Made by a program: the position numbers and the translations under genes. From NCBI GenBank assembly GCA_049320885.1, contig JBMORA010000035.1:39054-103053 (forward strand): DNA of 64,000 bases, read 5' to 3'. The notes beneath the pieces were generated by a model. It searched no databases. It saw nothing but the letters and a program-made list of their open reading frames with translations, and was not told where the DNA came from. This document shows, piece after piece, positions 17,433 through 35,884 of this stretch (its first letter is position 1; every line of letters begins with the position of its first letter). Source of the DNA: Thermodesulfobacteriota bacterium. Its GTDB lineage: Bacteria > Desulfobacterota > Desulfobacteria > Desulfobacterales > SURF-7.

Positions 17433-17494
17433 GTTTTTTTATCTGTGTCCATCCGAGCAATCTGTGGATAAACCGCTTTTCCCGCCGGCGGCAG
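17433..17494 (-). repeat. CACAGAT-type arm, inverted orientation
   Basis: The reverse complement reads CTGCCGCCGGCGGGAAAAGCGGTTTATCCACAGATTGCTCGGATGGACACAGATAAAAAAAC. This matches the left arms at 37931, 40027 and 41168. Confidence 0.7.
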
Positions 17495-17948: not shown

Positions 17949-17987
17949 CTATCCACAGATGATGCAGATTAACACAGATGAAAACCG
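17949..17987 (+). repeat. CACAGAT-type arm, forward orientation
   Basis: ACTATCCACAGATGATGCAGATTAACACAGATGAAAACCG, just upstream of the DUF1016 gene. Confidence 0.7.
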
Positions 17988-18050: not shown

Positions 18051-19085
18051 GTGAGCGGACTGAAAAAAAGCAATCCAGGCCCGGACTACACCCACCTCCT
18101 TGCAGAGGTGAAAGAGCGTGTTCGTTCGGCGCAATATGCCGCGTTGAAATCGGTCAATACCGAGTTGGTCGGGCTGTATTGGGACATCGGGCGGATGATC
18201 GTGGAACGCCAGACAGACGCCGAACATGGCACGGCCATAGCTGAACAGTTGGCCAAGGATCTGAGGACAGAATTTCCCGGAATCAGCGGTTTTTCCCGGC
18301 GCAATGTCTTTTATATGCGGGAATTTTACCTGCTTTACCGCGACGATAAGCGAGTGCAACCACTGGTTGCACAAATCGGATGGACTCATAACCTGATGAT
18401 TTTTCAGCGCTGTAAAGATCCTTTGGAGCGGGAATTTTATATCCGCATGACCCAAAAATTCGGCTGGTCCAAGAATGTTCTTATCCACCAGATCGACAAC
18501 CAGAGCTATGAAAAATCCCTGCTCGGCCAGACCAATTTCGATCAGGCGCTGACACCGGAACTGCGCGGTCAGGCCAAATTGGCGGTGAAGGATGAATATA
18601 CCTTTGATTTTTTAGAATTGGGCGAGGAGCACAGCGAACGGGAGTTGGAACGGGCGCTGCTCGCCCGGATCGAAGACTTCCTAAGGGCCATGGGTGGTAT
18701 GTTCGCCTTCATGGGCAGTCAATATCGGTTGGAGATCGATGGCGAGGAATTTTTTATCGATCTGCTGCTGTTTCACCGGCGGTTGCGCTGTCTGGTGGCC
18801 ATTGAGTTGAAAATAGGGAAGTTCAGGCCGGAGTTTGTCGGCAAGATGCAGTTTTATTTGACCGCACTTGACCGACAGGTGAGGCATGAAGACGAAAATC
18901 TTTCTATCGGAATCATTCTTTGCAAAGAAAAGAGCCGTACGATTGTCGAGTATGCCTTGCACGATGCACGCAAGCCCATTGGGGTGGCAACCTATAGAAT
19001 CACCAAGACCTTGCCAAAGGAATTGAGAGGACAGTTGCCACTGCCGGAAGAGATTGCAGCCCTGCTGGAAGGGATTGAAGAATGA
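18051..19085 (+). CDS. DUF1016 (YhcG-like) PD-(D/E)XK nuclease-family protein, copy 1
   Basis: 344 aa. SAQYAALKSVNTELVGLYWDIGRMIVERQ...GWSKNVLIHQIDNQSYE...YTFDFLELGEEHSERELERALL...FAFMGSQYRLEIDGEEFFIDLLLFHRRLRCLVAIELKIGKF. Confidence 0.9.
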   Translation: MSGLKKSNPGPDYTHLLAEVKERVRSAQYAALKSVNTELVGLYWDIGRMIVERQTDAEHGTAIAEQLAKDLRTEFPGISGFSRRNVFYMREFYLLYRDDKRVQPLVAQIGWTHNLMIFQRCKDPLEREFYIRMTQKFGWSKNVLIHQIDNQSYEKSLLGQTNFDQALTPELRGQAKLAVKDEYTFDFLELGEEHSERELERALLARIEDFLRAMGGMFAFMGSQYRLEIDGEEFFIDLLLFHRRLRCLVAIELKIGKFRPEFVGKMQFYLTALDRQVRHEDENLSIGIILCKEKSRTIVEYALHDARKPIGVATYRITKTLPKELRGQLPLPEEIAALLEGIEE

Positions 19086-19408
19086 GTGCATACCCCTCAT
19101 TTGATCCGGGCACAGTTGAGGCCATTGCCAAGATGATAGGCGAAGGCTGGATCGCCGAAGAAGCCGTGGCCCTGGCCCTCTACTGTTTTCTCAAACACCC
19201 CGACATCTACGCCGACACCGTCATCCGCGCTGCCAACACCAACACCAACGGCGACTCGGATTCCATTGCCTGCATCGCCGGGGGGATCAGTGGTGCGTAT
19301 CTGGGGGTTGCGGCGATTTCCGGTGAATGGGTCAGACGGGTTGAAAAGATGGAATACCTGGACACTTTGGCGATTCGACTGGTTGAAAAAAAAGAGTTCA
19401 AGGTTTGA
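19082..19408 (+). pseudogene. C-terminal fragment of an ADP-ribosylglycohydrolase-family protein
   Basis: 108 aa with ...EEAVALALYCFLKHPD...DTVIRAANTNTNGDSDSIACIAGGISGAYLG... This matches only the last third of ARH/DraG-like enzymes. Its ATG overlaps the DUF1016 stop (ATGA). Confidence 0.6.
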
Positions 19409-19435
19409 AAGTTCAAGGTTCAGGGTTGAAAAACA
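19396..19435 (+). repeat. GTTCAAGGTT-type tandem arm
   Basis: GTTCAAGGTT TGAAA GTTCAAGGTT CAGGGTT GAAAAAC. Confidence 0.7.
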
Positions 19436-21017: not shown

Positions 21018-21165
21018 GCTGGTTCAAGGTTGAAAAGTTCAAGGTTCAAGGTTGCCAGGTTCAATGTATAAGGTTGGTTGTTACGGGGCTTTCAAACTTT
21101 GAACCTTGAACATTTGAACTTTGAACAGTCTTTACCTTTGAACCAGTTAACTTTGAACTTACTAT
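21018..21165. repeat. ~150-nt imperfect hairpin built from GTTCAAGGTT / AACCTTGAAC units
   Basis: Left arm CTGGTTCAAGGTTGAAAAGTTCAAGGTTCAAGGTTGCCAGGTTCAA. Right arm TTCAAACTTTGAACCTTGAACATTTGAACTTTGAACAGTCTTTACCTTTGAACCAGTT. There is no ORF between the arms. It ends 17 nt before the HNH gene. Confidence 0.75.
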
Positions 21166-21181: not shown

Positions 21182-22135
21182 ATGATCGAAGCCTATATTG
21201 AAAAATTCAAAAAGCTGCGGACTGACAGGAATCGAAAAATCTGGACGGAGCGCACTTCTTACCGCGCGCCCCACAAACCTTTCCTGCTGCTCTCGATCAT
21301 GGATCTCATCAACCAGGGAGACATCACCGCCAATTTCATTGAACCGACCTTCGACCTGGTGGAGATGTTCAATACCTACTGGTCGGCCGTCATGCCGCCC
21401 GCAGCCTCCACCAGTATGGCCTATCCGTTTTATCATATGCGCAGCGAAGGCTTCTGGAAGCTCGTACCGGACATCGACACCCCGGTTTATTCCGTCAGTA
21501 AATTGCGTGAGCACTACCAGGGTGCCATCATCGACGAGACCCTGTTCCTACTCTTACAGCAGTCCGCCAGCCAGCACCAGCTGCGCACAGCCCTGATCAC
21601 CACCTATTTCGCCCCGGACCTGCAGCCATTAGTCTTCGAACAGGGCGTAGTAAGCTACCAGGCCCATGCCTATGGCCAGGAACTGCTGCGGATTGCCGAG
21701 TCGGCAGCCGGTTTTGAAAAGACTGTGCCGCCGGCCCTCCAGGAACCGAAAGTCCGCGACCAGGCCTTCCGCAAGGTGATCGTATCCCTGTACAACCACC
21801 GCTGTGCCCTCTGCGGCATCCGCATGCTCACCCCCGAAGGCCATACCGTGGTGGAAGCCGCCCACATCGTCCCTTGGCATAAAAGCCAGGATGATCGGCC
21901 CAGCAATGGGCTTTCTCTCTGCCGCCTCTGCCACTGGTCTTTTGACGAGGGCCTCATGAGCGTTGGTAAAGAGTACGAAGTCCTGGTTTCCAAACGCGTC
22001 ACTCTGGAAAACAATTTTCCAGGGCATATGTTGACTCTTTCGGACCGACGGATCTTCCGTCCCGATGATCAAAAATATTGGCCGGATCAGGAGAATTTAA
22101 ATTGGCATCGTCAGAAATTTTATGAAAGGTTGTAA
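21182..22135 (+). CDS. HNH endonuclease with a ~200-aa N-terminal domain of unknown function
   Basis: HNH core [53 protein letters not shown]. The N-terminus contains [20 protein letters not shown]. It sits directly upstream of hsdR. Confidence 0.8.
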
Positions 22136-22190
22136 AAATCCGGATCAGACGCTATCAATTCACGAGTGTCCAAGAGGGTTTGTGGCCCAT

Positions 22191-24575
22191 ATGGATAAAA
22201 AAAAGCTGAGTGAACGCGACATCTGCACCAAATTCATCACCCCGGCTCTGGAACGCGCGGGTTGGGATATCAGCACCCAGGTTCGGGAAGAATTTCCCCT
22301 TACCAACGGGCGTATCATCGTGCGTGGCAAGCTGTATACCCGCGCCAAGCACAAGCGCGCCGATTATGTCCTGTTTTACAAGCCGAATATTCCCATTGCC
22401 ATTATCGAAGCCAAGGACAACAACCACACGGTTGGCGATGGCATGCAACAGGCCCTGGGCTATGCTGACATGCTGCAAGTGCCGTTTGTATTCAGCTCCA
22501 ACGGCGATGGCTTTTTGTTTCACAACAGAATTGCCGCAGATGGCGTTATCGAGCGTGAGCTCTCACTTAACGAATTTCCCTCTGTGGAAACATTATGGCA
22601 ACTATGGGGGCAACATCGCGGGCTGAACGACCAGCAGAATGCGTTGGTCACGCAGGATTATTATAGCGACGTAAGCGGCAAGAACCCGCGCTATTACCAG
22701 TTATTGGCCATTAACAAAACCATTGAGGCAATCGCTCAGGGGAAAAATCGTATTCTTCTGGTGATGGCAACCGGCACCGGCAAAACCTTCACCGCCTTTC
22801 AAATCATCTGGCGTTTATGGAAGTCCAGGGCAAAAAAACGAATCCTGTTTCTTGCCGACCGCAACATTTTGATCGACCAGACCATGACCAATGATTTCAA
22901 ACCATTCGGTTCGGCCATGACCAAGATCCAGAAGCGGCAGACCAATAAGTCCTACGAGATTTACCTTTCCCTCTATCAGGCTGTTACCGGAAATGAGGAA
23001 GAGAAAAACATTTATAAGCAGTTCAGCCCCGATTTTTTCGATCTGATCATTATTGATGAATGCCATCGGGGCAGTGCGGCCGCCGATTCGGCCTGGCGTG
23101 AAATCCTCGAATATTTCACCTCCGCCACCCAGATCGGTCTTACCGCCACCCCCAAGGAGACCAAAGAAGTTTCCAATATCGATTACTTTGGCGACCCCAT
23201 CTATACTTACAGTCTTCGGCAGGGAATCGACGACGGTTTCCTTGCCCCTTATAAGGTCGTGCGCATCGATTTCGACCGGGATTTGACCGGCTGGCGACCC
23301 GACAAGGGCATGATCGACAAGTACGGCAACGAAATCGAGGACCGCATTTACAACCAAAAGGATTTCGACAAGACCCTGGTCCTTGAACAGCGCACCCAGT
23401 TGGTGGCCAAAAAGATCACCGAATTCCTCAGGCAGACCAACCGCTTCGACAAAGCCATCGTCTTTTGCGAAAACATCGACCATGCCGAGCGCATGCGCCA
23501 GGCCCTGGTCAATGAAAACGCCGACCTGGTGGCGCAAAACAGCAAATACGTCATGCGCATCACCGGCGACAACGAGGAAGGCAAAGCCGAGCTCGATAAC
23601 TTCATTTTTCCGGAGAGTAAATACCCGGTTATTGCCACCACTTCCAAGCTGATGACCACCGGCGTGGATGCTCAGACCTGCAAACTCATCGTGCTCGACC
23701 AGCGCATTCAGTCCATGACCGAATTCAAGCAGATCATCGGGCGCGGCACCCGCATCAATGAAGACTACGGCAAGTACTATTTCACCATCATTGACTTTAA
23801 AAAGGCCACCGAGTTGTTTGCCGACCCTGATTTCGACGGTGATCCGGTCCAGATCTACGAACCCAAGGGGGATGAATCACCGGTGCCGCCGGATATTCCC
23901 GGCGAGGCCGAAAGTGGCAGCGGCGTCACCTACCCGGAACCAGGAGGCGAGCAGGATTGGACCGGCGTCGCCGAACCCGGCCCAGAAGAGGAGGGCGACG
24001 GAACTCGCCGTTACGTCGTGGCCAATGTCGAGGTCAAGGTTGCCGCCGAGCGCGTCCAGTATTTCGACGCCAACGGTAAACTGATCACCGAATCCCTCAA
24101 GGACTACACCCGCAAGGCCCTGGCTAGGGAATACGCCTCCCTCGACGATTTCCTCCGCCGCTGGACCAGCACCGAAAAGAAGCAGGCCATCATCGACGAA
24201 CTCTCCGAACAGGGGGTGTTCTTCGATGCCCTTGCCGATGAGATCGGGCGGCAATCCGGCAAAGCATTCGATCCGTTCGATCTGGTCTGCCATGTCGCTT
24301 GGGATATGCCGCCTCTTACCCGCAAGGAACGGGCGGAACAGGTGAAGAAACGTAACTACTTCACCCAATACGGCGAGCAGGCCCGTCGCGTGCTGGAAGC
24401 GCTGCTCGACAAGTACGCCGATGAAGGCGTGGCCCCCATCGAAGAGACGCAGATTCTCACCATTGCCCCTTTTACCAAATTCGGCACCCCGCTGGAAATT
24501 ATCCGCGCCTTTGGGGGGCTGGATCAGTATCAGCAGGCTGTGCATGAGCTGGAGGATGCGCTTTATGCCGGATAA
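22191..24575 (+). CDS. hsdR: Type I restriction enzyme R subunit
   Basis: N-terminus [26 protein letters not shown]. Helicase motifs [14 protein letters not shown] and [11 protein letters not shown]. EcoEI-R-like C-terminal domain ([23 protein letters not shown]). Start moved to ATG 22191. Confidence 0.95.
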
Positions 24576-25029
24576 ACAAACCTCACACGAAGGCACGAAA
24601 ACACGAAGGGATAAAGAAGGGTTATCCAAGATCGTTGTGGATTGTGCATACCGGATGCATGTTGAGATCGGGCCGGGGTTGCTCGAGTCTGTTTATGAGG
24701 CGGTACTGGAGAAACTGCTATTGGAGAAAGGTCTCAGGGTAAATCGACAAAAGTCCATACCGATTGAGGTGATGGGTCTTTCCATCCATGAAGGATTCAG
24801 GGCTGATCTGATCGTGGAGGATCTTCTGCTGATTGAGCTTAAATCAGTAGAAAAACTCGCCCCGGTTCATTCCAAACAAGTCCTGACCTACCTTCGGCTT
24901 CTCAATCTGCCTCTCGGACTCCTCCTCAACTTCGGCGCAGCCACGTTCAAAGAAGGCTGCAAGCGCATCGTCAACGGCAAACAGGACTTCGTGTCTTCGT
25001 GCCTTCGTGTGAACCAAAAAGGATACTAA
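24565..25029 (+). CDS. GxxExxY-family (PD-(D/E)XK-like) small protein
   Basis: Core [52 protein letters not shown]...[21 protein letters not shown], with G-L-L-E-S-V-Y as the name motif. N-terminal HEGTKTRR and C-terminal FVSSCLRV are translations of the flanking inverted repeat, so the true start is uncertain. Confidence 0.75.
24582..25012. repeat. CACGAAG-type inverted repeat pair enclosing the GxxExxY gene
   Basis: Left arm 24582-24609 is CTCACACGAAGGCACGAAAACACGAAGG. Right arm 24987-25012 is CTTCGTGTCTTCGTGCCTTCGTGTGA. The reverse complement of the right arm matches the left arm at all but ~2 positions. Confidence 0.85.
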
Positions 25030-25031
25030 TC

Positions 25032-26498
25032 ATGTCACTGACCAACCTGATCAAAACCATTCAGGACATCATGCGCAAGGATGTCGGCGTCGATGGCGAC
25101 GCTCAGCGCATCAGCCAGATGGTCTGGCTGATTTTCCTGAAGATCTTCGACGACAAGGAGCAGGAGTGGCAGCTCACCGTGCCCGGCTACAAATCGCCGC
25201 TGCCCAGCCGTTTCCGCTGGTCCAGCTGGGCCAAGAACCCCGAGGGGATGACCGGCGAGGAATTGATCGACTTCGTCAACAATGACCTCTTCCCGGCGCT
25301 TAAAAAACTGGCCATCACAGCCGGCGTGTCGACCCATGGCAAGGTGGTCGGTTCGGTGTTCGAGGACGCCTACAACTATATGAAATCAGGTCATCTCCTG
25401 CGCCAGGTGATCAACACCATCGAAGCGGATGTGGACTTCAACAAATCCAGCGACCGGCACCTGTTCAACGACATCTACGAAAAGATTCTTTCTGACCTGC
25501 AATCGGCCGGTAACGCAGGTGAATACTACACCCCCCGCGCCGTCACCCGGTTCATGGTCGACATGCTCGATCCTCGACTCGGGCAAACCATTCTCGACCC
25601 GGCCTGCGGCACCGGCGGCTTTCTGACCTGCGCCATCGAGCACCTGAACAAGCAGGTCAAAACCGCCGAGGACCGCAAGCGCCTGCAGGGGTGTATCCAC
25701 GGCGTGGAGAAGAAACCCCTGCCGCACATGCTGGCCATGACCAACATGATGCTGCACGGCATCGATGTGCCCACCAACGTCCACCACGACAACACCCTGA
25801 GCCGACCGCTGAAGGATTACGGCCCCCGCGACCGGGTTGACCTGATCATCACCAACCCGCCCTTTGGCGGCATGGAAGAGGATGGAATCGAGAATAACTT
25901 CCCGCGCAAGTACCAGACCCGCGAGACCGCCGACCTCTTCATGGCGCTGATCATGCACCGCTTGAAGCACGATACCGGCAAGGCCGCCGTGGTTCTGCCC
26001 GACGGCTTTCTGTTCGGCGAGGGAACCAAAACCAATCTGAAGCGCGAATTGTTGGAGGAATTCAATCTGCACACCATCGTGCGCCTCCCCAAAGGCGTGT
26101 TCAGCCCCTATACCAGTATCGCCACCAACATCCTCTTTTTCGAAAAAGGCGATCCGACCAAGGAGGTCTGGTTCTTCGAGCACCCGTATCCTGAGGGCTA
26201 CAAATCCTACTCCCGCTCCAAGCCCCTGACCATCGCCGAGTTCGATCTCGAAAAAGCCTGGTGGGGCGGAGCCGGGCGCAAGGGCCGCAAGACCACCGAA
26301 CAGGCCTGGAAGGTTTCGGCCAAGGAACTGGCTGAACGCAACTACAACCTGGACTGCAAGAACCCGCACCAGGTGGAGGTCAACCACCGCGATCCGGAAG
26401 AGTTGATGGCCGAATACCGGCAGATCGTCCACCAGCTCGAAGCGGCGCAGGCAGCCTTGAAAGCCGAGTTGACGGCCTGCCTGGGGGGCAAGTCATGA
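25032..26498 (+). CDS. hsdM: Type I restriction-modification N6-adenine DNA methyltransferase subunit
   Basis: MSLTNLIKTIQDIMRKDVGVDGDAQRISQMVWLIFLKIFDD. SAM motif ILDPACGTGGFL. Catalytic motif LIITNPPFGG. Confidence 0.95.
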   Translation: MSLTNLIKTIQDIMRKDVGVDGDAQRISQMVWLIFLKIFDDKEQEWQLTVPGYKSPLPSRFRWSSWAKNPEGMTGEELIDFVNNDLFPALKKLAITAGVSTHGKVVGSVFEDAYNYMKSGHLLRQVINTIEADVDFNKSSDRHLFNDIYEKILSDLQSAGNAGEYYTPRAVTRFMVDMLDPRLGQTILDPACGTGGFLTCAIEHLNKQVKTAEDRKRLQGCIHGVEKKPLPHMLAMTNMMLHGIDVPTNVHHDNTLSRPLKDYGPRDRVDLIITNPPFGGMEEDGIENNFPRKYQTRETADLFMALIMHRLKHDTGKAAVVLPDGFLFGEGTKTNLKRELLEEFNLHTIVRLPKGVFSPYTSIATNILFFEKGDPTKEVWFFEHPYPEGYKSYSRSKPLTIAEFDLEKAWWGGAGRKGRKTTEQAWKVSAKELAERNYNLDCKNPHQVEVNHRDPEELMAEYRQIVHQLEAAQAALKAELTACLGGKS

Positions 26499-27664: not shown

Positions 27665-27843
27665 CTCACACGAAGGCACGAAGACACGAAGTTTTGAAAA
27701 CAGTCGTTATACCCGCGAAGGCGGGTACCCAGATTCGTGGCAACGATTTATCCAACGGCTTGCTGCACTATTTCCAATTATTCAGACCGGGAGGGGGGTA
27801 TGACCAGTTCGTCCTCCTTCGTGCCTTCGTGTCTTCGTGTGAG
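27665..27843. repeat. CACGAAG-type inverted repeat pair without cargo
   Basis: Left arm 27665-27691 is CTCACACGAAGGCACGAAGACACGAAG. Right arm 27817-27843 is CTTCGTGCCTTCGTGTCTTCGTGTGAG. The 125-nt interior holds the hairpin ACCCGC-GAAG-GCGGGT (27711-27726) and GGGAGGGGGGTATG, which is the hsdS SD and start. Confidence 0.85.
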
Positions 27844-29842
27844 CGATCTGCTGGAACAGCATTTCGACACCGCCTTTGCCGCGCCTGCCGGTATCGCCAA
27901 ACTGCGCGAGTTGATCTTGACCCTCGCCATGCAGGGCAAGCTGGTGGAACAGGACCCGAACGACCCACCCGCCAGCGAGTTGCTGAAGGAGATCGAAGCC
28001 GAAAAACAGCAGCTTGTGAAAGCGGGCAAGATTAAAAAGCCCAAGCCGCTGCCGCCCATTAAGCCGGAGGAAGTGCCCTACGAACTGCCGGAGGGATGGG
28101 AGTGGGCGAGGCTCGGTGAAATAACTGAATACAACGGTCGAAAAAATATCTCGGGCGATGAGATAGCCCCCGATACATGGTTGCTTGATCTCGAAGACAT
28201 TGAAAAGGGAACTTCTCGTATTCTGTTCCGAGCAAAGTTTTCAGAGCGCCAATCAAAATCTACGAAATCAACCTTTCAGAAAGGTGATGTGCTTTATGGC
28301 AAACTTCGTCCCTATCTCGACAAGGTTGTGGTAGCAGATGCTGATGGAGTTTGCACGACTGAGATTGTGCCCATCGTTCCGTTTAACGGAATACATTCTG
28401 AATTTCTCAGGTGGTTACTAAAGCGCCCTGCATTTATAACCCATGTTAACTCTCTCATGTATGGCGTCAAAATGCCCAGGCTTGGCACAGATGATGCTTT
28501 AACGAGTATTCACCCGCTTCCCCCCCTCCCCGAACAACACCGCATCGTCGCCCGCATCAACCAGTTGATGACCCGTTGTGATGAGTTGGAAAAGCTGCAC
28601 AAACAGCGGGAGGAGAAGCGGCTGGCCGTCCACGCCGCCGCCATCAAGCAACTGCTCGACCCGCCGGACCTGTCTGCCGGCCAGGCAGGCGGCTCGGCCT
28701 GGGACTTTATCCAACAGCACTTCGACGACCTCTACACCGTCAAGGAAAACGTCGCCGAACTGCGCAAGGCCATCCTCCAACTCGCCGTAATGGGCCGCCT
28801 CGTTCCCCCTGCCTGCCGGCAGGCAGGCAAGACCCCAACGACCCTCCCACCACCAGAACCTGGATCATGGTGGGTGTACGTTATTGAGTGCGAAAATGGA
28901 TCATTCTATAAAGGTTTTACAGAAGATCTTCCGCGTCGCTGGCGGCAACATCTATCAGGTACTGCGAGCGAATGGACAAAAAAGCATCCACCCAAACAGG
29001 TTTACTACTGGGAAAAATGTTTTTCAAAAGAAGCAGCCATTAAGCGGGAAGACTATTTGAAATCAGGCTTTGGTCGAGAATGGTTCAAGCGCGAGGTGGT
29101 TGATAATCAAAAAGCATGGCAGACCGCCAGCGAACTGCTCAAAGAGATCGAAGCCGAAAAACAGCGACTGATGAAGGCAGGTAAAATCAAGAAGCCCAAG
29201 CCCGTACCGCCCATCAAGCCGGAGGAAGTGCCCTACCAACTGCCGCAGGGCTGGGAGTGGGTGCGATTTGGAAAAGTTGCGAGCAACCGACTAGGAAAAA
29301 TGCTCGATAAATCTAAGAATCGAGGTAACCCAAAACCATATTTGAGAAATACCAATGTTCAATGGCATCAGTTTGTTCTTGATGATGTCAAAGAGATGAA
29401 ATTCGAAGATGAAGAGCTTGATGAATTTCGTGTACTTCCCGGTGACCTTCTAATATGCGAAGGTGGTGAACCCGGTCGCTGTGCAATATGGCGCGATTCA
29501 GAGGTAGAAATCTATTTCCAGAAAGCCATACATAGAGCGAGGCCGTTTTCGTGCGTTACTTCTGAGTATCTGCAAGTTTGCCTTACAAACGATGGGGGTA
29601 ACGGTCAGTTGGAAAAGTATTTCACTGGGGCAACAATCAAGCATTTCCCTGGTGACAAGCTTAATGGGTATGTCATTCCTCTACCACCTCTTCCCGAACA
29701 ACACCGCATCGTCGCCCGCATCGATCAGTTGATGGCCCTGTGCGACACACTCGACCAGCAGATCGACGCTGCCACCGGCAAAAAGACCGAACTGCTGGAC
29801 GCCGTGATGGCCCGCCTGTCGGCAGACACGGCCCAGGTATAA
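27800..29842 (+). CDS. hsdS: Type I R-M specificity subunit with a GIY-YIG nuclease domain embedded in the central conserved region
   Basis: Two TRDs, each preceded by ASELLKEIEAEKQ.L.KAGKIKKPKP.PPIKPEEVPY.LP.GWEW and followed by LPPLPEQHRIVARI.QLM. Between them sits WWVYVIECENGSFYKGFTEDLPRRWRQHLSG...QVYYWEKCFSKEAAIKREDYLKSGFGREW (GIY-YIG/UPF0213-like). Start set at ATG 27800, behind GGGAGGGGGG. Confidence 0.85.
   Translation: MTSSSSFVPSCLRVSDLLEQHFDTAFAAPAGIAKLRELILTLAMQGKLVEQDPNDPPASELLKEIEAEKQQLVKAGKIKKPKPLPPIKPEEVPYELPEGWEWARLGEITEYNGRKNISGDEIAPDTWLLDLEDIEKGTSRILFRAKFSERQSKSTKSTFQKGDVLYGKLRPYLDKVVVADADGVCTTEIVPIVPFNGIHSEFLRWLLKRPAFITHVNSLMYGVKMPRLGTDDALTSIHPLPPLPEQHRIVARINQLMTRCDELEKLHKQREEKRLAVHAAAIKQLLDPPDLSAGQAGGSAWDFIQQHFDDLYTVKENVAELRKAILQLAVMGRLVPPACRQAGKTPTTLPPPEPGSWWVYVIECENGSFYKGFTEDLPRRWRQHLSGTASEWTKKHPPKQVYYWEKCFSKEAAIKREDYLKSGFGREWFKREVVDNQKAWQTASELLKEIEAEKQRLMKAGKIKKPKPVPPIKPEEVPYQLPQGWEWVRFGKVASNRLGKMLDKSKNRGNPKPYLRNTNVQWHQFVLDDVKEMKFEDEELDEFRVLPGDLLICEGGEPGRCAIWRDSEVEIYFQKAIHRARPFSCVTSEYLQVCLTNDGGNGQLEKYFTGATIKHFPGDKLNGYVIPLPPLPEQHRIVARIDQLMALCDTLDQQIDAATGKKTELLDAVMARLSADTAQV
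28808..28827. repeat. Perfect 20-nt palindrome CCTGCCTGCCGGCAGGCAGG inside hsdS
   Basis: Read directly from the sequence. It lies between CTCGTTCCC (LVP) and CAAGACCCCAACGACCCTCCC, which would encode QDPNDPP only in the +2 frame. Confidence 0.9.
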
Positions 29843-30212: not shown

Positions 30213-30515
30213 ATGGGTGAAAAGAAGCAGCGAAAAGATTACACGGATGAATTTAAACTGGATGCCGTCAAGCTAGTTATCGAACAAGGGTACTCCACCC
30301 CTGAGGTTGGCCGGCGGCTGGGGATCAATCATACCAACGTCTCAAGATGGGTTCGGGAATATCATGCAAAGATAGGTGTCCCTTCCAAAAGTTCAGGTGC
30401 TGTCCAGGAACTGGAGGAGGAGGTAAAACGCCTCAGAAAAGAAAACAAACGCCTTTTGATGGAGCGAGAAATCTTAAAAAAGGCGGCGGCCTTCTTTGCG
30501 AACGAATCGAACTGA
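30213..30515 (+). CDS. IS3 transposase OrfA (HTH)
   Basis: MGEKKQRKDYTDEFKLDAVKLVIEQGYSTPEVGRRLGINHTNVSRWVREY...LMEREILKKAAAFFA. The slippery heptamer AAAAAAG lies at 30476-30482. Confidence 0.85.
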   Translation: MGEKKQRKDYTDEFKLDAVKLVIEQGYSTPEVGRRLGINHTNVSRWVREYHAKIGVPSKSSGAVQELEEEVKRLRKENKRLLMEREILKKAAAFFANESN

Positions 30516-31383
30516 GGTTCGATTTTATCCGGCAGCAAATGAAGGCCTATCCCGTAACCGTCTTATGTTCGGTGATGCGGGTTAGCCGGGGTGGGTTCTA
30601 TGGCTATCTGAAACGATTCAATGCTGGGAAGAATCGTCCAGAAGAGACCGAATTGGGGAAGCGAATCAAAGAAATATTCAACGATCACAAAAACTGCTAC
30701 GGATCCCGACGGATCGCAAGGCAATTAAGGGATGAAGGCCAGCCGGTGGGCCGATATAAAGTGCGACGGATCATGCGCCAGTTGTGGGGCTGAAGGCAAA
30801 AACTCCCAAGCGGTTCAAGCTGACGACCGACAGCCGACATTCGTTCCCGGTGGCGCCCAATACCCTGAATCGGAAATTCACGGTTGATGCTCCGAACAAG
30901 GTCTGGACGGCGGATATCACCTATGTATGGACCTTTGAAGGTTGGTTATACCTGGCGGTTGTCATGGACCTGTATTCCCGCCGGATTGTCGGGTGGGCCA
31001 TGAGTGAAAGAATGCAGAAGCAGCTTGTGCTGGATGCCCTGGCCATGGCGTATTGGCAGCGGAAGCCCTCAAAGGGTCTTTTGCATCATTCGGATCGCGG
31101 AAGTCAGTATGCCTGCCATGAATACAGGAAGCGGCTTAAAGGCTATGGCATGGAGGCCAGCATGAGCAGAAAGGGAAACTGCTGGGATAATTCACCAATG
31201 GAACGCTTTTTCCGCTCCTTGAAATCAGAACGGTTGACCGCTTGCCGTTTTGTGTCACGGAATGAAGCAAAAATGGAAATACTGGACTATATTACATTCT
31301 ATAACAGCATTCGGCTTCATTCGACATTGGGGTACGTATCTCCGATGGCTTATGAGAAAAAACAGTACTTAAAGGTGGCTTGA
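30476..31383 (+). pseudogene. IS3 transposase OrfB (DDE), entered by -1 frameshift and then broken by an extra frameshift
   Basis: The -1 frame continues from the A6G site. DDE region WTADITYVWT...HSDRGSQYA...NSPMERFFRSLKSE. The frame breaks at ~30784 (CAGTTGTGGGGCTGA where CAGTTGGGGCTGAAG is expected), which looks like a 2-nt TG insertion. Confidence 0.75.
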
Positions 31384-35737: not shown

Positions 35738-35884
35738 GTTCACGCGAAGACGCGAAGAGCGCGAAGGGAAAAGCGGTTTAACCACGGATTACACGGATTG
35801 CACGGATGAAAAACCAAAAGATGGTTTTTTGCCTCCGGCAGGAAAAAACTTGCTTCTCTTCGCGCTCATCGCGGCTTCGCGTGA
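35738..35884. repeat. Nested inverted-repeat element: CGCGAAG-type arms enclosing a CACGGAT-type left arm
   Basis: Outer arms are TTCACGCGAAGACGCGAAGAGCGCGAAGG and CTTCTCTTCGCGCTCATCGCGGCTTCGCGTGAG. The interior is GCGGTTTAACCACGGATTACACGGATTGCACGGATGAAAAACC...TTTTTGCCTCCGGCAGGAAAAAAC. Confidence 0.8.

What the first reader, a model, noticed from the sequence alone, without database searches (positions are those of the whole stretch)
24582..25012. GxxExxY gene sits between hsdR and hsdM as a cassette bounded by a triplicated-octamer inverted repeat
The left arm is three tandem NCACGAAG units (CTCACACGAAG-GCACGAAA-ACACGAAGG, 24582-24609) starting 7 nt after the hsdR stop. The right arm (24987-25012) is its near-perfect reverse complement and ends 20 nt before the hsdM ATG. 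The arms are translated into the odd termini of the annotated ORF (HEGTKTRR... and ...FVSSCLRV). From memory, GxxExxY and four-helix-bundle proteins are the classic cargo of 23S rRNA intervening sequences, which are also bounded by long stems. This needs checking. Here the same kind of stem-bounded cassette is inserted within a protein-coding operon. That suggests a mobile or RNA-processed module rather than an ordinary accessory gene.
Basis: partly seen in the sequence, partly recalled or inferred. Interest (0 to 1): 0.6.

Follow-up and report, generated by a model that had tools for sequence, protein, structure and literature searches.

The report
Heptamer-armed nuclease cassette inside restriction operon
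A small nuclease gene sits between two restriction-enzyme genes as a self-contained insert, and its two mirror-image ends, each three copies of a 7-base word, are better conserved than the protein code, pointing to a widespread, barely described kind of insertable gene cassette built like the inserts known in ribosomal RNA genes.

Summary
Arms 24583-24608 and 24987-25012 (TCA-[CACGAAG-N]x3 and its complement, 25/26 paired) bracket a GxxExxY/PF13366 PD-(D/E)XK nuclease gene between hsdR and hsdM.

It is a discrete, insertion-polymorphic cassette.
- Two orthologous operons (L003, L081) have a clean empty hsdR|hsdM junction; three others (L004, L005, L010) are occupied.
- About 60 of 80 homologous loci from many phyla have the same architecture.
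- The heptamer co-varies between the arms (CACGAAG, CGCGAAG, CGCGGAG, CACAAAG, CACGATG).
- The arms are the best-conserved part of the element (0.97-0.99 column identity), although synonymous sites are near saturation.

The arms are not unique. A cargo-less pair lies before hsdS (27665-27843), where relatives carry a full cassette. The same arms bracket target-recognition domains in frame in related hsdS genes and an unrelated ORF in a viral contig. In metagenomes they mostly form short hairpins or unpaired arrays.

The Coxiella 23S rRNA IVS has the same design: a 28-bp stem with three tandem heptamers, cut by RNase III.

My best reading is a DNA-level mobile or recombining cassette with cognate terminal heptamer arrays, whose RNA stem makes insertion tolerable. 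RNA processing is untested, and I found no wobble asymmetry. The mechanism is inferred.

The parts
24565..25029 (+). GxxExxY / PDDEXK_3 nuclease ORF (154 aa). The ATG overlaps the last codons of hsdR. The ORF reads through both arms.
   Evidence: TIGR04256 2.5e-36 and PF13366 1.2e-35, domain at aa 20-136. E45, D81 and E91-x-K93 are invariant in A1. pN/pS is 0.08-0.14.
24565..24582 (+). Leader: start codon plus a few codons 5' of the left arm. In most other contexts it is ATG-AAR-RRC immediately before TCAC.
   Evidence: column identity 0.68 against 0.45 in the flanks.
24583..24608 (+). Left arm: TCA + CACGAAG-G-CACGAAA-A-CACGAAG, encoding SHEGTKTRR.
   Evidence: column identity 0.97.
24987..25012 (+). 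Right arm: CTTCGTG-T-CTTCGTG-C-CTTCGTG + TGA, encoding FVSSCLRV.
   Evidence: column identity 0.99.
25013..25031 (+). Trailer: ACCAA (conserved after the right arm in unrelated contexts), then an AAGGA Shine-Dalgarno-like stretch for hsdM.
   Evidence: positions +1..+6 identity 0.86. Alignment with the empty sites.
22122..24575 (+). hsdR (EcoAI/type IB family), upstream host gene.
   Evidence: NF046051, 1228 bits.
25032..26498 (+). hsdM, downstream host gene.
   Evidence: PF02384 4e-73 and PF12161.
27665..27691 (+). Left arm of a second, cargo-less pair (CTCA-CACGAAG x3), directly after the DUF1016/YhcG gene.
   Evidence: The identical arm is present in L081. The same site holds a full GxxExxY cassette in L003 and L006.
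27692..27816 (+). 125-nt loop of the second pair. It contains the RBS and ATG (27800) of hsdS. It is homologous to the 215-217-nt loops in L081 and L005.
27817..27843 (+). Right arm of the second pair, translated as codons 7-14 of HsdS (FVPSCLRV).
   Evidence: the same peptide occurs in P0122, P0132 and P0212.
35740..35884 (.). Third hairpin with CGCGAAG x3 arms (35740-35770 / 35854-35884, 90% complementary). The 83-nt loop holds CACGGAT x3.

Best explanation
The segment from about 24565 to about 25018 is one copy of a widespread, self-contained gene cassette. It consists of a GxxExxY PD-(D/E)XK nuclease gene delimited by two terminal inverted arrays of a cognate heptamer (TCA-[CACGAAG-N]3 ... 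[N-CTTCGTG]3-TGA). It is inserted into the 25-nt hsdR-hsdM spacer of a type I restriction-modification operon.

Shown:
- It is a discrete unit present or absent at orthologous sites.
- It occurs in more than 150 different gene neighbourhoods across phyla, nearly always co-directional with its neighbours.
- Its protein is under strong purifying selection.
- Its arms are under even stronger nucleotide-level constraint.
- The arms co-vary with the protein clade.

Inferred:
- The arms are the sites through which the cassette is recognised and moved or recombined at the DNA level.
- Most likely this is done by its own nuclease, making a nuclease-plus-cognate-repeat pair comparable in logic to transposon terminal repeats or RAYT/REPIN.
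- The cargo-less hairpins and the arm-bracketed hsdS domains would be products of the same process.
- On the operon transcript the arms must form a duplex of about 26 bp that loops the cassette out. This leaves the hsdR stop and the hsdM start about 25 nt apart, as in the empty site.
- As in 23S rRNA intervening sequences, this duplex is probably an RNase III substrate. That would make the insertion tolerable to the host rather than being its primary purpose.
For: Discrete unit:
- Homology between copies in unrelated contexts begins about 9 nt before TCAC and ends about 6 nt after TGA.

Presence/absence:
- hsdR|hsdM is empty in L003 and L081 and occupied in the window, L004, L005 and L010.
- The X|hsdS junction holds a full cassette in L003 and L006, and only arms in the window, L081 and L005.

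Arms as part of the element:
- 60 of 80 loci have bracketing arms at 19/27 or better.
- 21 of 27 arm positions change on both sides. There are 148 compensated cells against 56.7 +/- 9.8 in shuffles (0/500).

Constraint:
- pS is 0.44-0.86 and pN/pS 0.08-0.14, yet the arms differ at only 0-4%.
- Column identity is 0.97/0.99 for the arms against 0.94 for codon position 2.
- The cassette's pS is similar to that of the flanking hsdR and hsdM, so it was co-inherited with the operon and the arms were kept in situ.

Cognate link:
- The heptamer variant tracks the protein clade.
- 14 of 17 cargo-less hairpins share the variant of the resident cassette (permuted mean 4.2, 0/5000).

Other points:
- The catalytic residues are intact.
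- Neighbours are co-directional for 61 of 73 upstream and 46 of 68 downstream genes, drawn from 67 + 89 Pfam families enriched for R-M and defence genes.
- There is no sense-strand wobble signature.
- Precedent for the RNA consequence: the Coxiella IVS, with a 28-bp stem, three tandem heptamers and RNase III cleavage.
Against: - No target-site duplication and no recognisable transposase or recombinase is associated with the cassette.
- The arms also bracket other cargo: hsdS target-recognition domains, an unrelated viral ORF, and loops of unrelated sequence. The nuclease may therefore be a passenger rather than the mover.
- In an unbiased motif sample only 3 of 160 arrays bracket a cassette-sized interior. 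A further 58 have no inverted partner at all.
- In-situ conservation of the arms over pS of about 0.5 is most simply explained by a function in place, for example on the transcript, rather than by mobility.
- The heptamer match between cassettes and nearby hairpins could reflect local duplication.
- No activity of any GxxExxY protein is documented. PF13366 is listed as 'function unknown', there is no PDB relative, and my structure model was poor.
Confidence: 0.45

Rival explanations
1. The primary function is at the RNA level, as in an IVS. On the hsd operon transcript the arms form a long duplex that RNase III cuts, or that occludes the cassette's translation start. This would excise or silence the nuclease mRNA, separate the hsdR and hsdM messages, and keep the operon functional. 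The arms would be maintained by host-level selection for that processing. Mobility would be incidental or ancient.
For: - The arms pair in the MFE fold (z = -4.97).
- The design matches the RNase III-processed Coxiella IVS.
- The cassette is nearly always co-directional and tightly packed in operons: its ATG overlaps the upstream stop, and a trailer carrying an SD precedes the downstream gene.
- The arms are conserved in situ while the co-inherited ORF and the hsd genes saturate at synonymous sites.
- In distant subfamilies the purine-rich arm (GGAGG repeats) sits where the ORF's Shine-Dalgarno would be, and the other arm is its complement. This is a fold-back that would shut off translation.
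- With the stem closed, the hsdR stop and the hsdM ATG are 6 + 19 = 25 nt apart, the same as in the empty sites.
Against: - There is no G.U over A.C excess on the sense strand (44 vs 47), and spacer positions pair at about the chance level.
- The arm sequence itself, not just the pairing, is invariant within a subfamily. RNase III has little sequence specificity.
- The same arms lie in frame inside hsdS and around the hsdS start codon in several lineages, where efficient cleavage would abolish HsdS.
- Many arrays are unpaired.
- In this subfamily ribosomes translate through both arms.
Confidence: 0.3
2. The heptamer arrays are portable recombination sites that the host, or the defence island, uses to swap modules in restriction-modification operons: target-recognition domains and accessory nuclease genes. 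The GxxExxY gene would be either the nuclease that initiates exchange or simply one exchangeable module.
For: - Arms bracket each TRD in frame in L005 and L006 hsdS.
- They do so at fixed positions in 14 of 120 EcoAI-type HsdS homologues.
- The same arm pair at the X|hsdS junction holds a full cassette, a 215-nt loop or a 125-nt loop in different relatives.
- Extra partial right arms and tandem duplications lie next to cassettes.
- In L010 a RhuM gene fragment lies between arms.
- R-M and defence neighbours are enriched.
Against: - Many cassettes sit among housekeeping genes.
- The same TRD1 occurs with arms (L005) and without arms (window). The arms came or went without any exchange of the domain.
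- No recombinase is linked.
- Inverted orientation around a coding domain favours inversion or deletion, not productive exchange.
Confidence: 0.12
3. There is nothing specific here. The gene is an ordinary accessory gene that lies between two members of a generic family of genomic tandem repeats (STRR-like simple repeats generated by slippage), with no functional link between gene and repeats.
For: - Tandem CAC-purine heptamer arrays are common on their own, often unpaired and mixed.
- Heptamer repeats are known to be over-represented in bacteria, with unknown role (PMC4692102).
Against: - The gene and the arms are inherited as one unit across phyla, with boundaries exactly at the arms.
- The arms co-vary and are more conserved than codon position 2.
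- The whole unit is present or absent as a block at orthologous sites.
Confidence: 0.05

Closest known systems
23S rRNA intervening sequences (IVS), especially the Coxiella burnetii helix-45 IVS (PMC4990558)
   Same: - An element of about 430-450 nt bounded by terminal inverted repeats that form a stem of about 26-28 bp.
- The arm consists of three tandem heptamers (GACAGAT in Coxiella, CACGAAG here), and the unit number varies between copies.
- It encloses one small ORF whose start lies at or next to the arm.
- ORF-less short versions exist.
- Distribution is sporadic and the origin is unknown.
   Different: - Here the host is a protein-coding operon (the hsdR|hsdM spacer), not an rRNA helix.
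- The cargo is a PD-(D/E)XK nuclease, not the S23p four-helix-bundle protein.
- The ORF is under strong purifying selection, whereas S23p in Coxiella is decaying.
- RNase III excision is shown for IVSs and only inferred here.
REP/REPIN elements and their RAYT transposase (PMC3116915 and PMC3733652 appeared in the results but were not read; the comparison rests on established knowledge)
   Same: - A nuclease-type gene is flanked by inverted copies of the same short repeat that is also dispersed in the genome as singletons and as inverted doublets forming hairpins.
- The repeat variant tracks the protein clade.
- Locations are intergenic and within operons.
   Different: - The protein is PD-(D/E)XK, not an HUH/Y1 transposase.
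- The repeats are tandem heptamer arrays, not GTAG/CGTC-tagged palindromes.
- The gene is multi-context and spreads horizontally rather than being a single domesticated copy.
- The loops of the doublets are unrelated in sequence.
MITEs / small IS elements with terminal inverted repeats, and in-frame palindromic elements such as Rickettsia RPEs (established knowledge)
   Same: - Terminal inverted repeats.
- Full-length and cargo-less forms.
- Insertion polymorphism.
- Occasional in-frame residence in coding regions.
   Different: - There is no target-site duplication and no DDE, serine or tyrosine transposase.
- The cargo-less forms share only the arms, not an interior.
- The arms are internally repetitive.
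Free-standing homing endonuclease genes, including the PD-(D/E)XK type such as I-Ssp6803I (established knowledge)
   Same: - A small nuclease gene with presence/absence polymorphism at otherwise conserved sites.
- Strong purifying selection.
- Horizontal spread.
   Different: - It occupies many unrelated sites rather than one cognate site.
- It is not in an intron or intein.
- It is bounded by repeat arrays.
- No cleavage specificity is known.
Tandem heptamer repeat arrays: cyanobacterial STRR, and Xanthomonas GGGAATC arrays with 70-75 convergent pairs (PMC4692102)
   Same: - Short tandem 7-8-nt units in intergenic regions.
- They are frequently found as convergent (inverted) pairs able to form stem-loops.
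- Their function is unknown.
   Different: - Those studies did not link the arrays to an enclosed gene, to insertion polymorphism or to arm covariation.
- The unit sequences differ.

Membership tests
GxxExxY protein (TIGR04256) / PDDEXK_3 (PF13366) | HMM score above the curated cut-off over the full domain | tested here: met
   124.6 bits against a cut-off of 35. 122.8 bits against a cut-off of 22, with profile positions 3-117 of 117 matched.
GxxExxY protein (TIGR04256) / PDDEXK_3 (PF13366) | GxxExxY motif and PD-(D/E)XK catalytic residues (E ... D ... E-x-K) | tested here: met
   G38-L-L-E41-S-V-Y44, E45, D81 and E91-L-K93 are invariant in 22 sequences.
23S rRNA intervening sequence (IVS) | Inserted in a 23S rRNA helix (helix 9, 25 or 45) | tested here: not met
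   The element lies between hsdR and hsdM. Rfam finds no rRNA in the window.
23S rRNA intervening sequence (IVS) | Terminal inverted repeats forming a long stem that encloses the element | tested here: met
   26 nt, 25/26 paired. The arms pair in the MFE fold. Covariation in 21 of 27 pairs.
23S rRNA intervening sequence (IVS) | Tandem heptamers within the arm, as described for Coxiella | tested here: met
   Three CACGAAG units per arm, compared with three GACAGAT units.
23S rRNA intervening sequence (IVS) | Excision by RNase III cleavage in the stem | not testable with these tools
   Needs transcript end mapping or an in vitro assay. The indirect sequence test (G.U vs A.C) gave no support.
23S rRNA intervening sequence (IVS) | Cargo is the S23p four-helix-bundle protein, or none | tested here: not met
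   The cargo is PF13366. I could not verify that GxxExxY occurs in rRNA IVSs; that claim rests on memory only.
TIR transposon / MITE | Terminal inverted repeats | tested here: met
TIR transposon / MITE | Target-site duplication flanking the element | tested here: not met
   No consistent direct repeat in 28 aligned junctions. The composite flanks of the window align in register with the empty sites, with no duplicated bases.
TIR transposon / MITE | Encoded or trans-acting transposase of a known class | tested here: not met
   PF13366 is the only Pfam match of the cargo. The only transposase nearby is an unrelated IS3-type gene at 30347-31383.
TIR transposon / MITE | Non-autonomous copies share the interior sequence of a master element | tested here: not met
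   The loops of 50 cargo-less hairpins are unrelated except at orthologous or locally duplicated sites.
REPIN / RAYT | RAYT (IS200/IS605-like Y1 HUH) protein | tested here: not met
   The cargo is PD-(D/E)XK.
REPIN / RAYT | Gene flanked by its cognate repeats, with the same repeats dispersed as singlets and inverted doublets | tested here: met
   (70 doublets, 58 singlets). 14 of 17 hairpins match the resident variant.
Integron gene cassette | A single attC at the 3' end and a linked IntI integrase | tested here: not met
   The arms lie at both ends, and I found no integrase among the ORFs I scanned around the element; the rest of the window was not annotated.
Homing endonuclease gene | Presence/absence polymorphism at an otherwise conserved site | tested here: met
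   L003 and L081 are empty; the window, L004, L005 and L010 are occupied.
Homing endonuclease gene | A single cognate target site that is cleaved when empty | tested here: inconclusive
   The cassette occupies many unrelated sites. Whether the arrays or hairpins themselves are the target cannot be tested here.

The most novel reading that the evidence does not exclude
Tandem-heptamer inverted arrays together with small proteins such as GxxExxY would constitute a previously unrecognised, cross-phylum cassette system. Under this reading the protein recognises its cognate heptamer arrays, and any DNA lying between two inverted arrays becomes a movable or exchangeable unit: the nuclease gene itself, restriction-specificity domains, or other small ORFs. 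The classical ORF-bearing 23S rRNA intervening sequences would then simply be members of this class that landed in rRNA genes, where RNase III removes them. The long-unexplained bacterial heptamer repeat arrays (STRR, Xanthomonas GGGAATC pairs) would be its footprints.
Probability: 0.25. Interest if true: 0.85.

Novelty: new variant of a known kind. Interest (0 to 1): 0.68.

Why it matters
If the reading is right, it links three loose ends.
- The origin and mobility of rRNA intervening sequences, unexplained since about 1990.
- The function of the very large but uncharacterised GxxExxY/PF13366 family. More than 8000 close relatives were retrieved here, and I found no experimental literature.
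- The meaning of tandem heptamer arrays that are over-represented in many bacterial genomes.

It also suggests a way in which defence islands and type I restriction operons acquire accessory nucleases and possibly remodel specificity subunits.

In practice the cassette is small (about 450 nt) and sharply bounded, and natural empty and occupied alleles are available. Binding, cleavage, RNase III processing and mobility are therefore directly testable.

For annotation, it explains recurrent 'odd' peptide tails ([16 protein letters not shown] and the like) in thousands of predicted proteins, including HsdS subunits.

Tried and rejected
- **Rfam:** a gathering-threshold search of the whole window found only a tRNA. 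No known RNA family covers the arms.
- **PDB:** a sequence search found no relative.
- **Structure prediction:** AlphaFold2 on the 22-sequence alignment gave pLDDT 53, with the arm-encoded tails least ordered. I judged this too poor for a fold search and ran none.
- **Phages and plasmids:** the phage collection had no protein match, the plasmid collection had four weak matches, and a viral-contig protein scan found none. There is no evidence that phages or plasmids are the vehicle.
- **Target-site duplication:** none found.
- **MITE-like master interior in cargo-less hairpins:** none found.
- **Orientation of unpaired arrays relative to genes:** crude ORF calls gave no clear bias. I treat this as inconclusive and did not use it.
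- **GIY-YIG insertion in hsdS:** I searched for its own inverted repeats and found none.
- **PADLOC:** GxxExxY is not part of a described defence system; there is only a weak 6e-4 hit to a DRT-associated PD-(D/E)XK.
- **Literature:** 'GxxExxY' appears in 3 papers and 'PDDEXK_3' in 1, none about the repeats. The arm sequences themselves appear in none.
- **WIN-L005 hsdR comparison:** the value is a frame artefact (pN 0.55) and should be ignored.
- **Rejected idea:** I first read the near-identical proteins across phyla as recent transfer. Synonymous sites are close to saturation, so the identity reflects constraint instead.
Full report
**1. The observation**

The window holds an inverted repeat with arms at 24583-24608 (TCACACGAAGGCACGAAAACACGAAG) and 24987-25012 (CTTCGTGTCTTCGTGCCTTCGTGTGA). 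The arms are 26 nt long, 25/26 complementary and 378 nt apart. Each arm is TCA/TGA plus three tandem 8-nt units, a heptamer CACGAAG plus one spacer base.

The surrounding genes are:
- an EcoAI-family hsdR at 22122-24575 (NF046051, 1228 bits);
- an hsdM at 25032-26498 (N6_Mtase 4e-73).

The enclosed ORF, 24565-25029, is a GxxExxY/PF13366 PD-(D/E)XK protein. The HMM domain spans only residues 20-136. The arms are therefore translated as extra tails, SHEGTKTRR and FVSSCLRV.

The motif is far above chance: 9 hits against 1.45 expected, with 0 of 100 shuffles reaching 9. The arms pair in the MFE fold of the region (z = -4.97).

**2. The arms are not unique to this locus**

- A second pair with the same units lies at 27665-27691/27817-27843, with only 125 nt between the arms. 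It directly follows the DUF1016/YhcG gene.
- Its right arm is translated as codons 7-14 of HsdS. The true hsdS start is ATG 27800, giving MTSSSSFVPSCLRVSDLLEQHF.
- A third hairpin at 35740-35884 uses CGCGAAG units on both sides.
- Pairs built from other short units also occur. GTTCAAGG arms at 19389/21133 bracket an AAA_14/DUF4143 ATPase gene. ATCTGTG/CACAGAT arms lie at 17436/17984.
- The region is a defence island: HNH, a type I R-M system, two DUF1016 genes (PADLOC PDC-S02), an AAA_14/DUF4143 gene (PDC-S01) and an IS3 transposase.

**3. The gene and its arms form one conserved unit across phyla**

- The protein has thousands of close relatives, 75-90% identical over the full length, in Thermodesulfobacteriota, Chrysiogenota, Verrucomicrobiota, Nitrosomonas, Chloroflexota and others. 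The window's own MAG protein is P0001.
- In an alignment, similarity begins at SHEGTKTRR and ends at [10 protein letters not shown]. Residues outside are unrelated.
- In 80 reference-genome loci, a script found bracketing arms of the form TCA-[CRCGRAG-N]2-4 ... [N-CTYCGYG]2-4-TGA in the great majority. Sixty pass a 19/27 threshold.
- The heptamer differs between subfamilies (CACGAAG, CGCGAAG, CGCGGAG, CACAAAG, CACGATG), and the other arm always follows.
- The dedicated counter gives 21 of 27 positions changed on both sides. There are 148 compensated cells against 56.7 +/- 9.8 in shuffles (0/500). 89% of cells are paired, against 58% or less when partners are slid.

**4. It is an insertion-polymorphic cassette**

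The same operon (hsdR/hsdM 85-92% identical) is found in L003, L004, L005, L010 and, through the closest HsdS homologue, in L081 (*Desulforhabdus* sp. TSK).

- hsdR and hsdM are 25-26 nt apart with no trace of arms in L003 and L081.
- The same junction is occupied in the window, L004, L005 and L010.
- The window's flanks (6 + 19 = 25 nt) align in register with the empty spacers, Shine-Dalgarno on Shine-Dalgarno. There is no target-site duplication.
- The junction before hsdS carries a full GxxExxY cassette in L003 and L006. It carries only arms plus a 215-217-nt or 125-nt loop in L081, L005 and the window.
- L081 has RhuM rather than DUF1016 upstream, yet the shared sequence still starts at ATGAATAACGGGATGGTC|TCAC.
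- L004 and L010 have extra partial right arms. L005 has four to five tandem copies of the cassette's 3' end plus right arm.

**5. Boundaries and context**

- Junctions aligned from 28 loci show a conserved ATG-AAR-RRC immediately 5' of TCAC. This ATG often overlaps the stop of a co-directional upstream gene (ATGA).
- A conserved ACCAA follows TGA. An SD and the start of the next gene come after it.
- Neighbours are co-directional for 61 of 73 upstream and 46 of 68 downstream genes.
- Neighbours belong to 67 and 89 different Pfam families. R-M and defence genes are enriched, but Hsp70, AlaRS, SdhA-like proteins, peptidases and transporters also occur.
- In this subfamily the ATG lies outside the left arm and reads through it in frame (37 loci).
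- In distant subfamilies a conserved internal ATG lies just inside the arm, so the purine-rich arm (GGAGG repeats) sits where an SD would. This explains the 'odd termini' as a subfamily peculiarity.

**6. Selection**

- Between copies, synonymous sites in the ORF are near saturation (pS 0.44-0.86) with pN/pS of 0.08-0.14. The protein is functional, and the cross-phylum identity reflects constraint, not recent transfer.
- Over the same comparisons the 52 arm nucleotides differ at 0-4%.
- Column identity along 11 copies is:

| Region | Column identity |
|---|---|
| Flanks | 0.45 |
| Leader | 0.68 |
| Left arm | 0.97 |
| Codon position 1 | 0.83 |
| Codon position 2 | 0.94 |
| Codon position 3 | 0.60 |
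| Right arm | 0.99 |
| Trailer, first six bases | 0.86 |
| Beyond the trailer | 0.44 |

- The cassette's pS against L004 and L005 (0.44-0.55) is like that of the flanking hsd genes (0.38-0.66). This is consistent with co-inheritance with the operon. The arms have therefore been kept intact in place.

**7. RNA helix or DNA/sequence element?**

- Across 110 arm pairs, heptamer positions are complementary 96.8% of the time. The spacers are complementary only 44% of the time, roughly chance for purine-left, pyrimidine-right composition.
- G:T (44) and A:C (47) mismatches are equally common on the sense strand. This is not the signature of a sense-RNA helix under selection, although isolated mismatches in a 26-bp helix may be nearly neutral.
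- The arm sequence is invariant within a subfamily rather than drifting by compensation.
- The same arms occur in frame inside hsdS genes. In L005 and L006 an F-type arm ([11 protein letters not shown]) precedes each target-recognition domain and an R-type arm follows it.
- 14 of 120 EcoAI-type HsdS homologues carry such peptides at fixed positions. Efficient RNase III cleavage there would be destructive.
- These points favour sequence-specific recognition, by a protein acting on DNA or RNA, over a mere helix.
- In situ conservation, operon-internal placement, fold-back of an SD-like arm and restoration of the 25-nt stop-to-start distance all fit an RNA-level role.
- I therefore keep the RNA model as a strong rival.

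**8. The arms are broader than the cassette**

The 160 arrays break down as follows:
  - 70 have an inverted partner within 300 nt, forming short hairpins;
  - 3 have a partner at cassette distance;
  - 1 has a partner further away;
  - 58 have no partner although contig sequence is available;
  - 28 lie too close to a contig end to tell.
- Unpaired arrays often lie in runs of different CAC-purine heptamers.
- Loop sequences of the cargo-less hairpins are unrelated between loci.
- In a viral contig (L212) the same arms tightly bracket an unrelated 130-aa ORF of unknown function.
- Within a locus, 14 of 17 cargo-less hairpins use the heptamer variant of the resident GxxExxY cassette (permuted mean 4.2, 0/5000). 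This is compatible with a cognate protein-repeat relationship, or with local duplication.

**9. What is known**

- The Coxiella 23S IVS is described as a 428-nt selfish element. It has a 28-bp terminal stem and three tandem heptamers (GACAGAT) whose number varies between strains. RNase III cuts at the first repeat, and the element holds an S23p four-helix-bundle ORF (PMC4990558). The architecture is the same as here.
- Xanthomonas has 70-75 convergent pairs of GGGAATC heptamer arrays of unknown function (PMC4692102).
- PF13366 is listed as 'function unknown, multiple transfers' (PMC3424549).
- 'GxxExxY' occurs in three papers of the library, none about repeats. The arm sequences occur in none.

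**10. Verdict**

This is a discrete, stem-bounded, insertion-polymorphic cassette that resembles an ORF-bearing rRNA IVS but lies in an mRNA operon.
- My best-supported account (confidence about 0.45) is a nuclease gene with cognate terminal heptamer arrays that act at the DNA level as its recognition, mobility or recombination sites. The unavoidable RNA stem would make insertion in operons tolerable.
- The main rival (about 0.3) is that RNA processing or translational fold-back is the selected function.
- The chemistry of movement, the role of the nuclease and RNase III cleavage are all inferred, not shown.

Noticed in passing
window 27800-29842 (GIY-YIG part about 28868-29071): The hsdS gene carries an in-frame GIY-YIG nuclease domain (PF01541, 3.4e-14). 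It is inserted in the central conserved linker, where the first half of the protein has EQDPNDPP. Most homologues are 555-590 aa and lack it. P0124 and P0183 also have it. No inverted repeat flanks it.
   Followed up: partly
L005:10240-12060, L006:6455-7400; proteins P0123, P0128-P0132, P0140, P0141, P0145, P0161, P0196: CACGAAG/CGCGAAG arm arrays lie in frame inside EcoAI-type hsdS genes and bracket each target-recognition domain. An F arm sits at about aa 62-80 and about aa 363-377, and an R arm at about aa 281-310 and after the stop. The window's TRD1 is orthologous to the arm-bracketed TRD1 of L005 but has no arms.
   Followed up: partly
window 19389-19432 / 21090-21133, plus 21022-21053 / 21095-21126: Inverted arrays of GTTCAAGG-type units bracket a 484-aa AAA_14/DUF4143 ATPase gene (PADLOC PDC-S01). 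An extra left-type copy forms a short hairpin at the 3' end. This is the same architecture with a different unit and a different cargo.
   Followed up: partly
window 17436-17470 / 17950-17984: An inverted pair built from ATCTGTG/CACAGAT units (35 nt, 77% complementary) encloses 479 nt of AT-rich sequence with no obvious ORF. It lies next to a second DUF1016/YhcG gene (18051-19085). The unit resembles the GACAGAT heptamer of the Coxiella IVS.
   Followed up: no
window 35740-35884: A hairpin with CGCGAAG x3 arms has a loop containing a tandem array of a different unit (CACGGAT x3, 35782-35807).
   Followed up: no
L005:6400-7100: The 3' 158 nt of the cassette, including the right arm and the trailer, are tandemly repeated four to five times between the GxxExxY gene and hsdM in Nitrosomonas nitrosa Nm90. 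This may be real expansion or an assembly artefact.
   Followed up: no
L010:5009-5353: A CACGAAG arm pair after DUF1016 encloses 299 nt that read as the N-terminal fragment of a RhuM-like protein. In L081 an intact RhuM gene lies just upstream of the equivalent arm pair.
   Followed up: no
L212:3042-3474 (IMG/VR contig): CACGAAG arms tightly bracket an unrelated 130-aa ORF. It has no Pfam match and a weak hit to phrog_38816 (unknown function). Its ATG lies 3 nt after the left arm, and its TGA stop is formed by the first unit of the right arm.
   Followed up: partly
L082, L090, L095, L099 (metagenome contigs): Unpaired runs of different CAC-purine heptamers lie on one strand (CACAGAG, CACGAAG, CACGGAG, CACGGAT, CACGGGG), with up to nine consecutive CACGAAGG units. 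F-type arrays are Shine-Dalgarno-like (GAAGG, GGAGG) and R-type arrays are anti-SD-like (CCTTC, CCTCC).
   Followed up: no
L033:6447-6529, L043:1978-2060, L048:6444-6526: Short arm hairpins have 37-nt loops containing a strong SD and an ATG (for example AAGAAGGAGGATTGCAATG), so that a downstream reading frame starts in the loop and runs through the right arm. The arrangement at the window's hsdS start is the same.
   Followed up: no
window 30347-31383: An IS3-family transposase (HTH_21 + rve, two overlapping ORFs) lies directly downstream of hsdS. Its sequence is unrelated to the arms.
   Followed up: no
window 21182-22135: An HNH endonuclease gene resembling phosphorothioated-DNA-binding restriction enzymes (NF045808, 1.3e-41) overlaps the start of hsdR. 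The corresponding position in L081 holds a small HTH gene instead.
   Followed up: no
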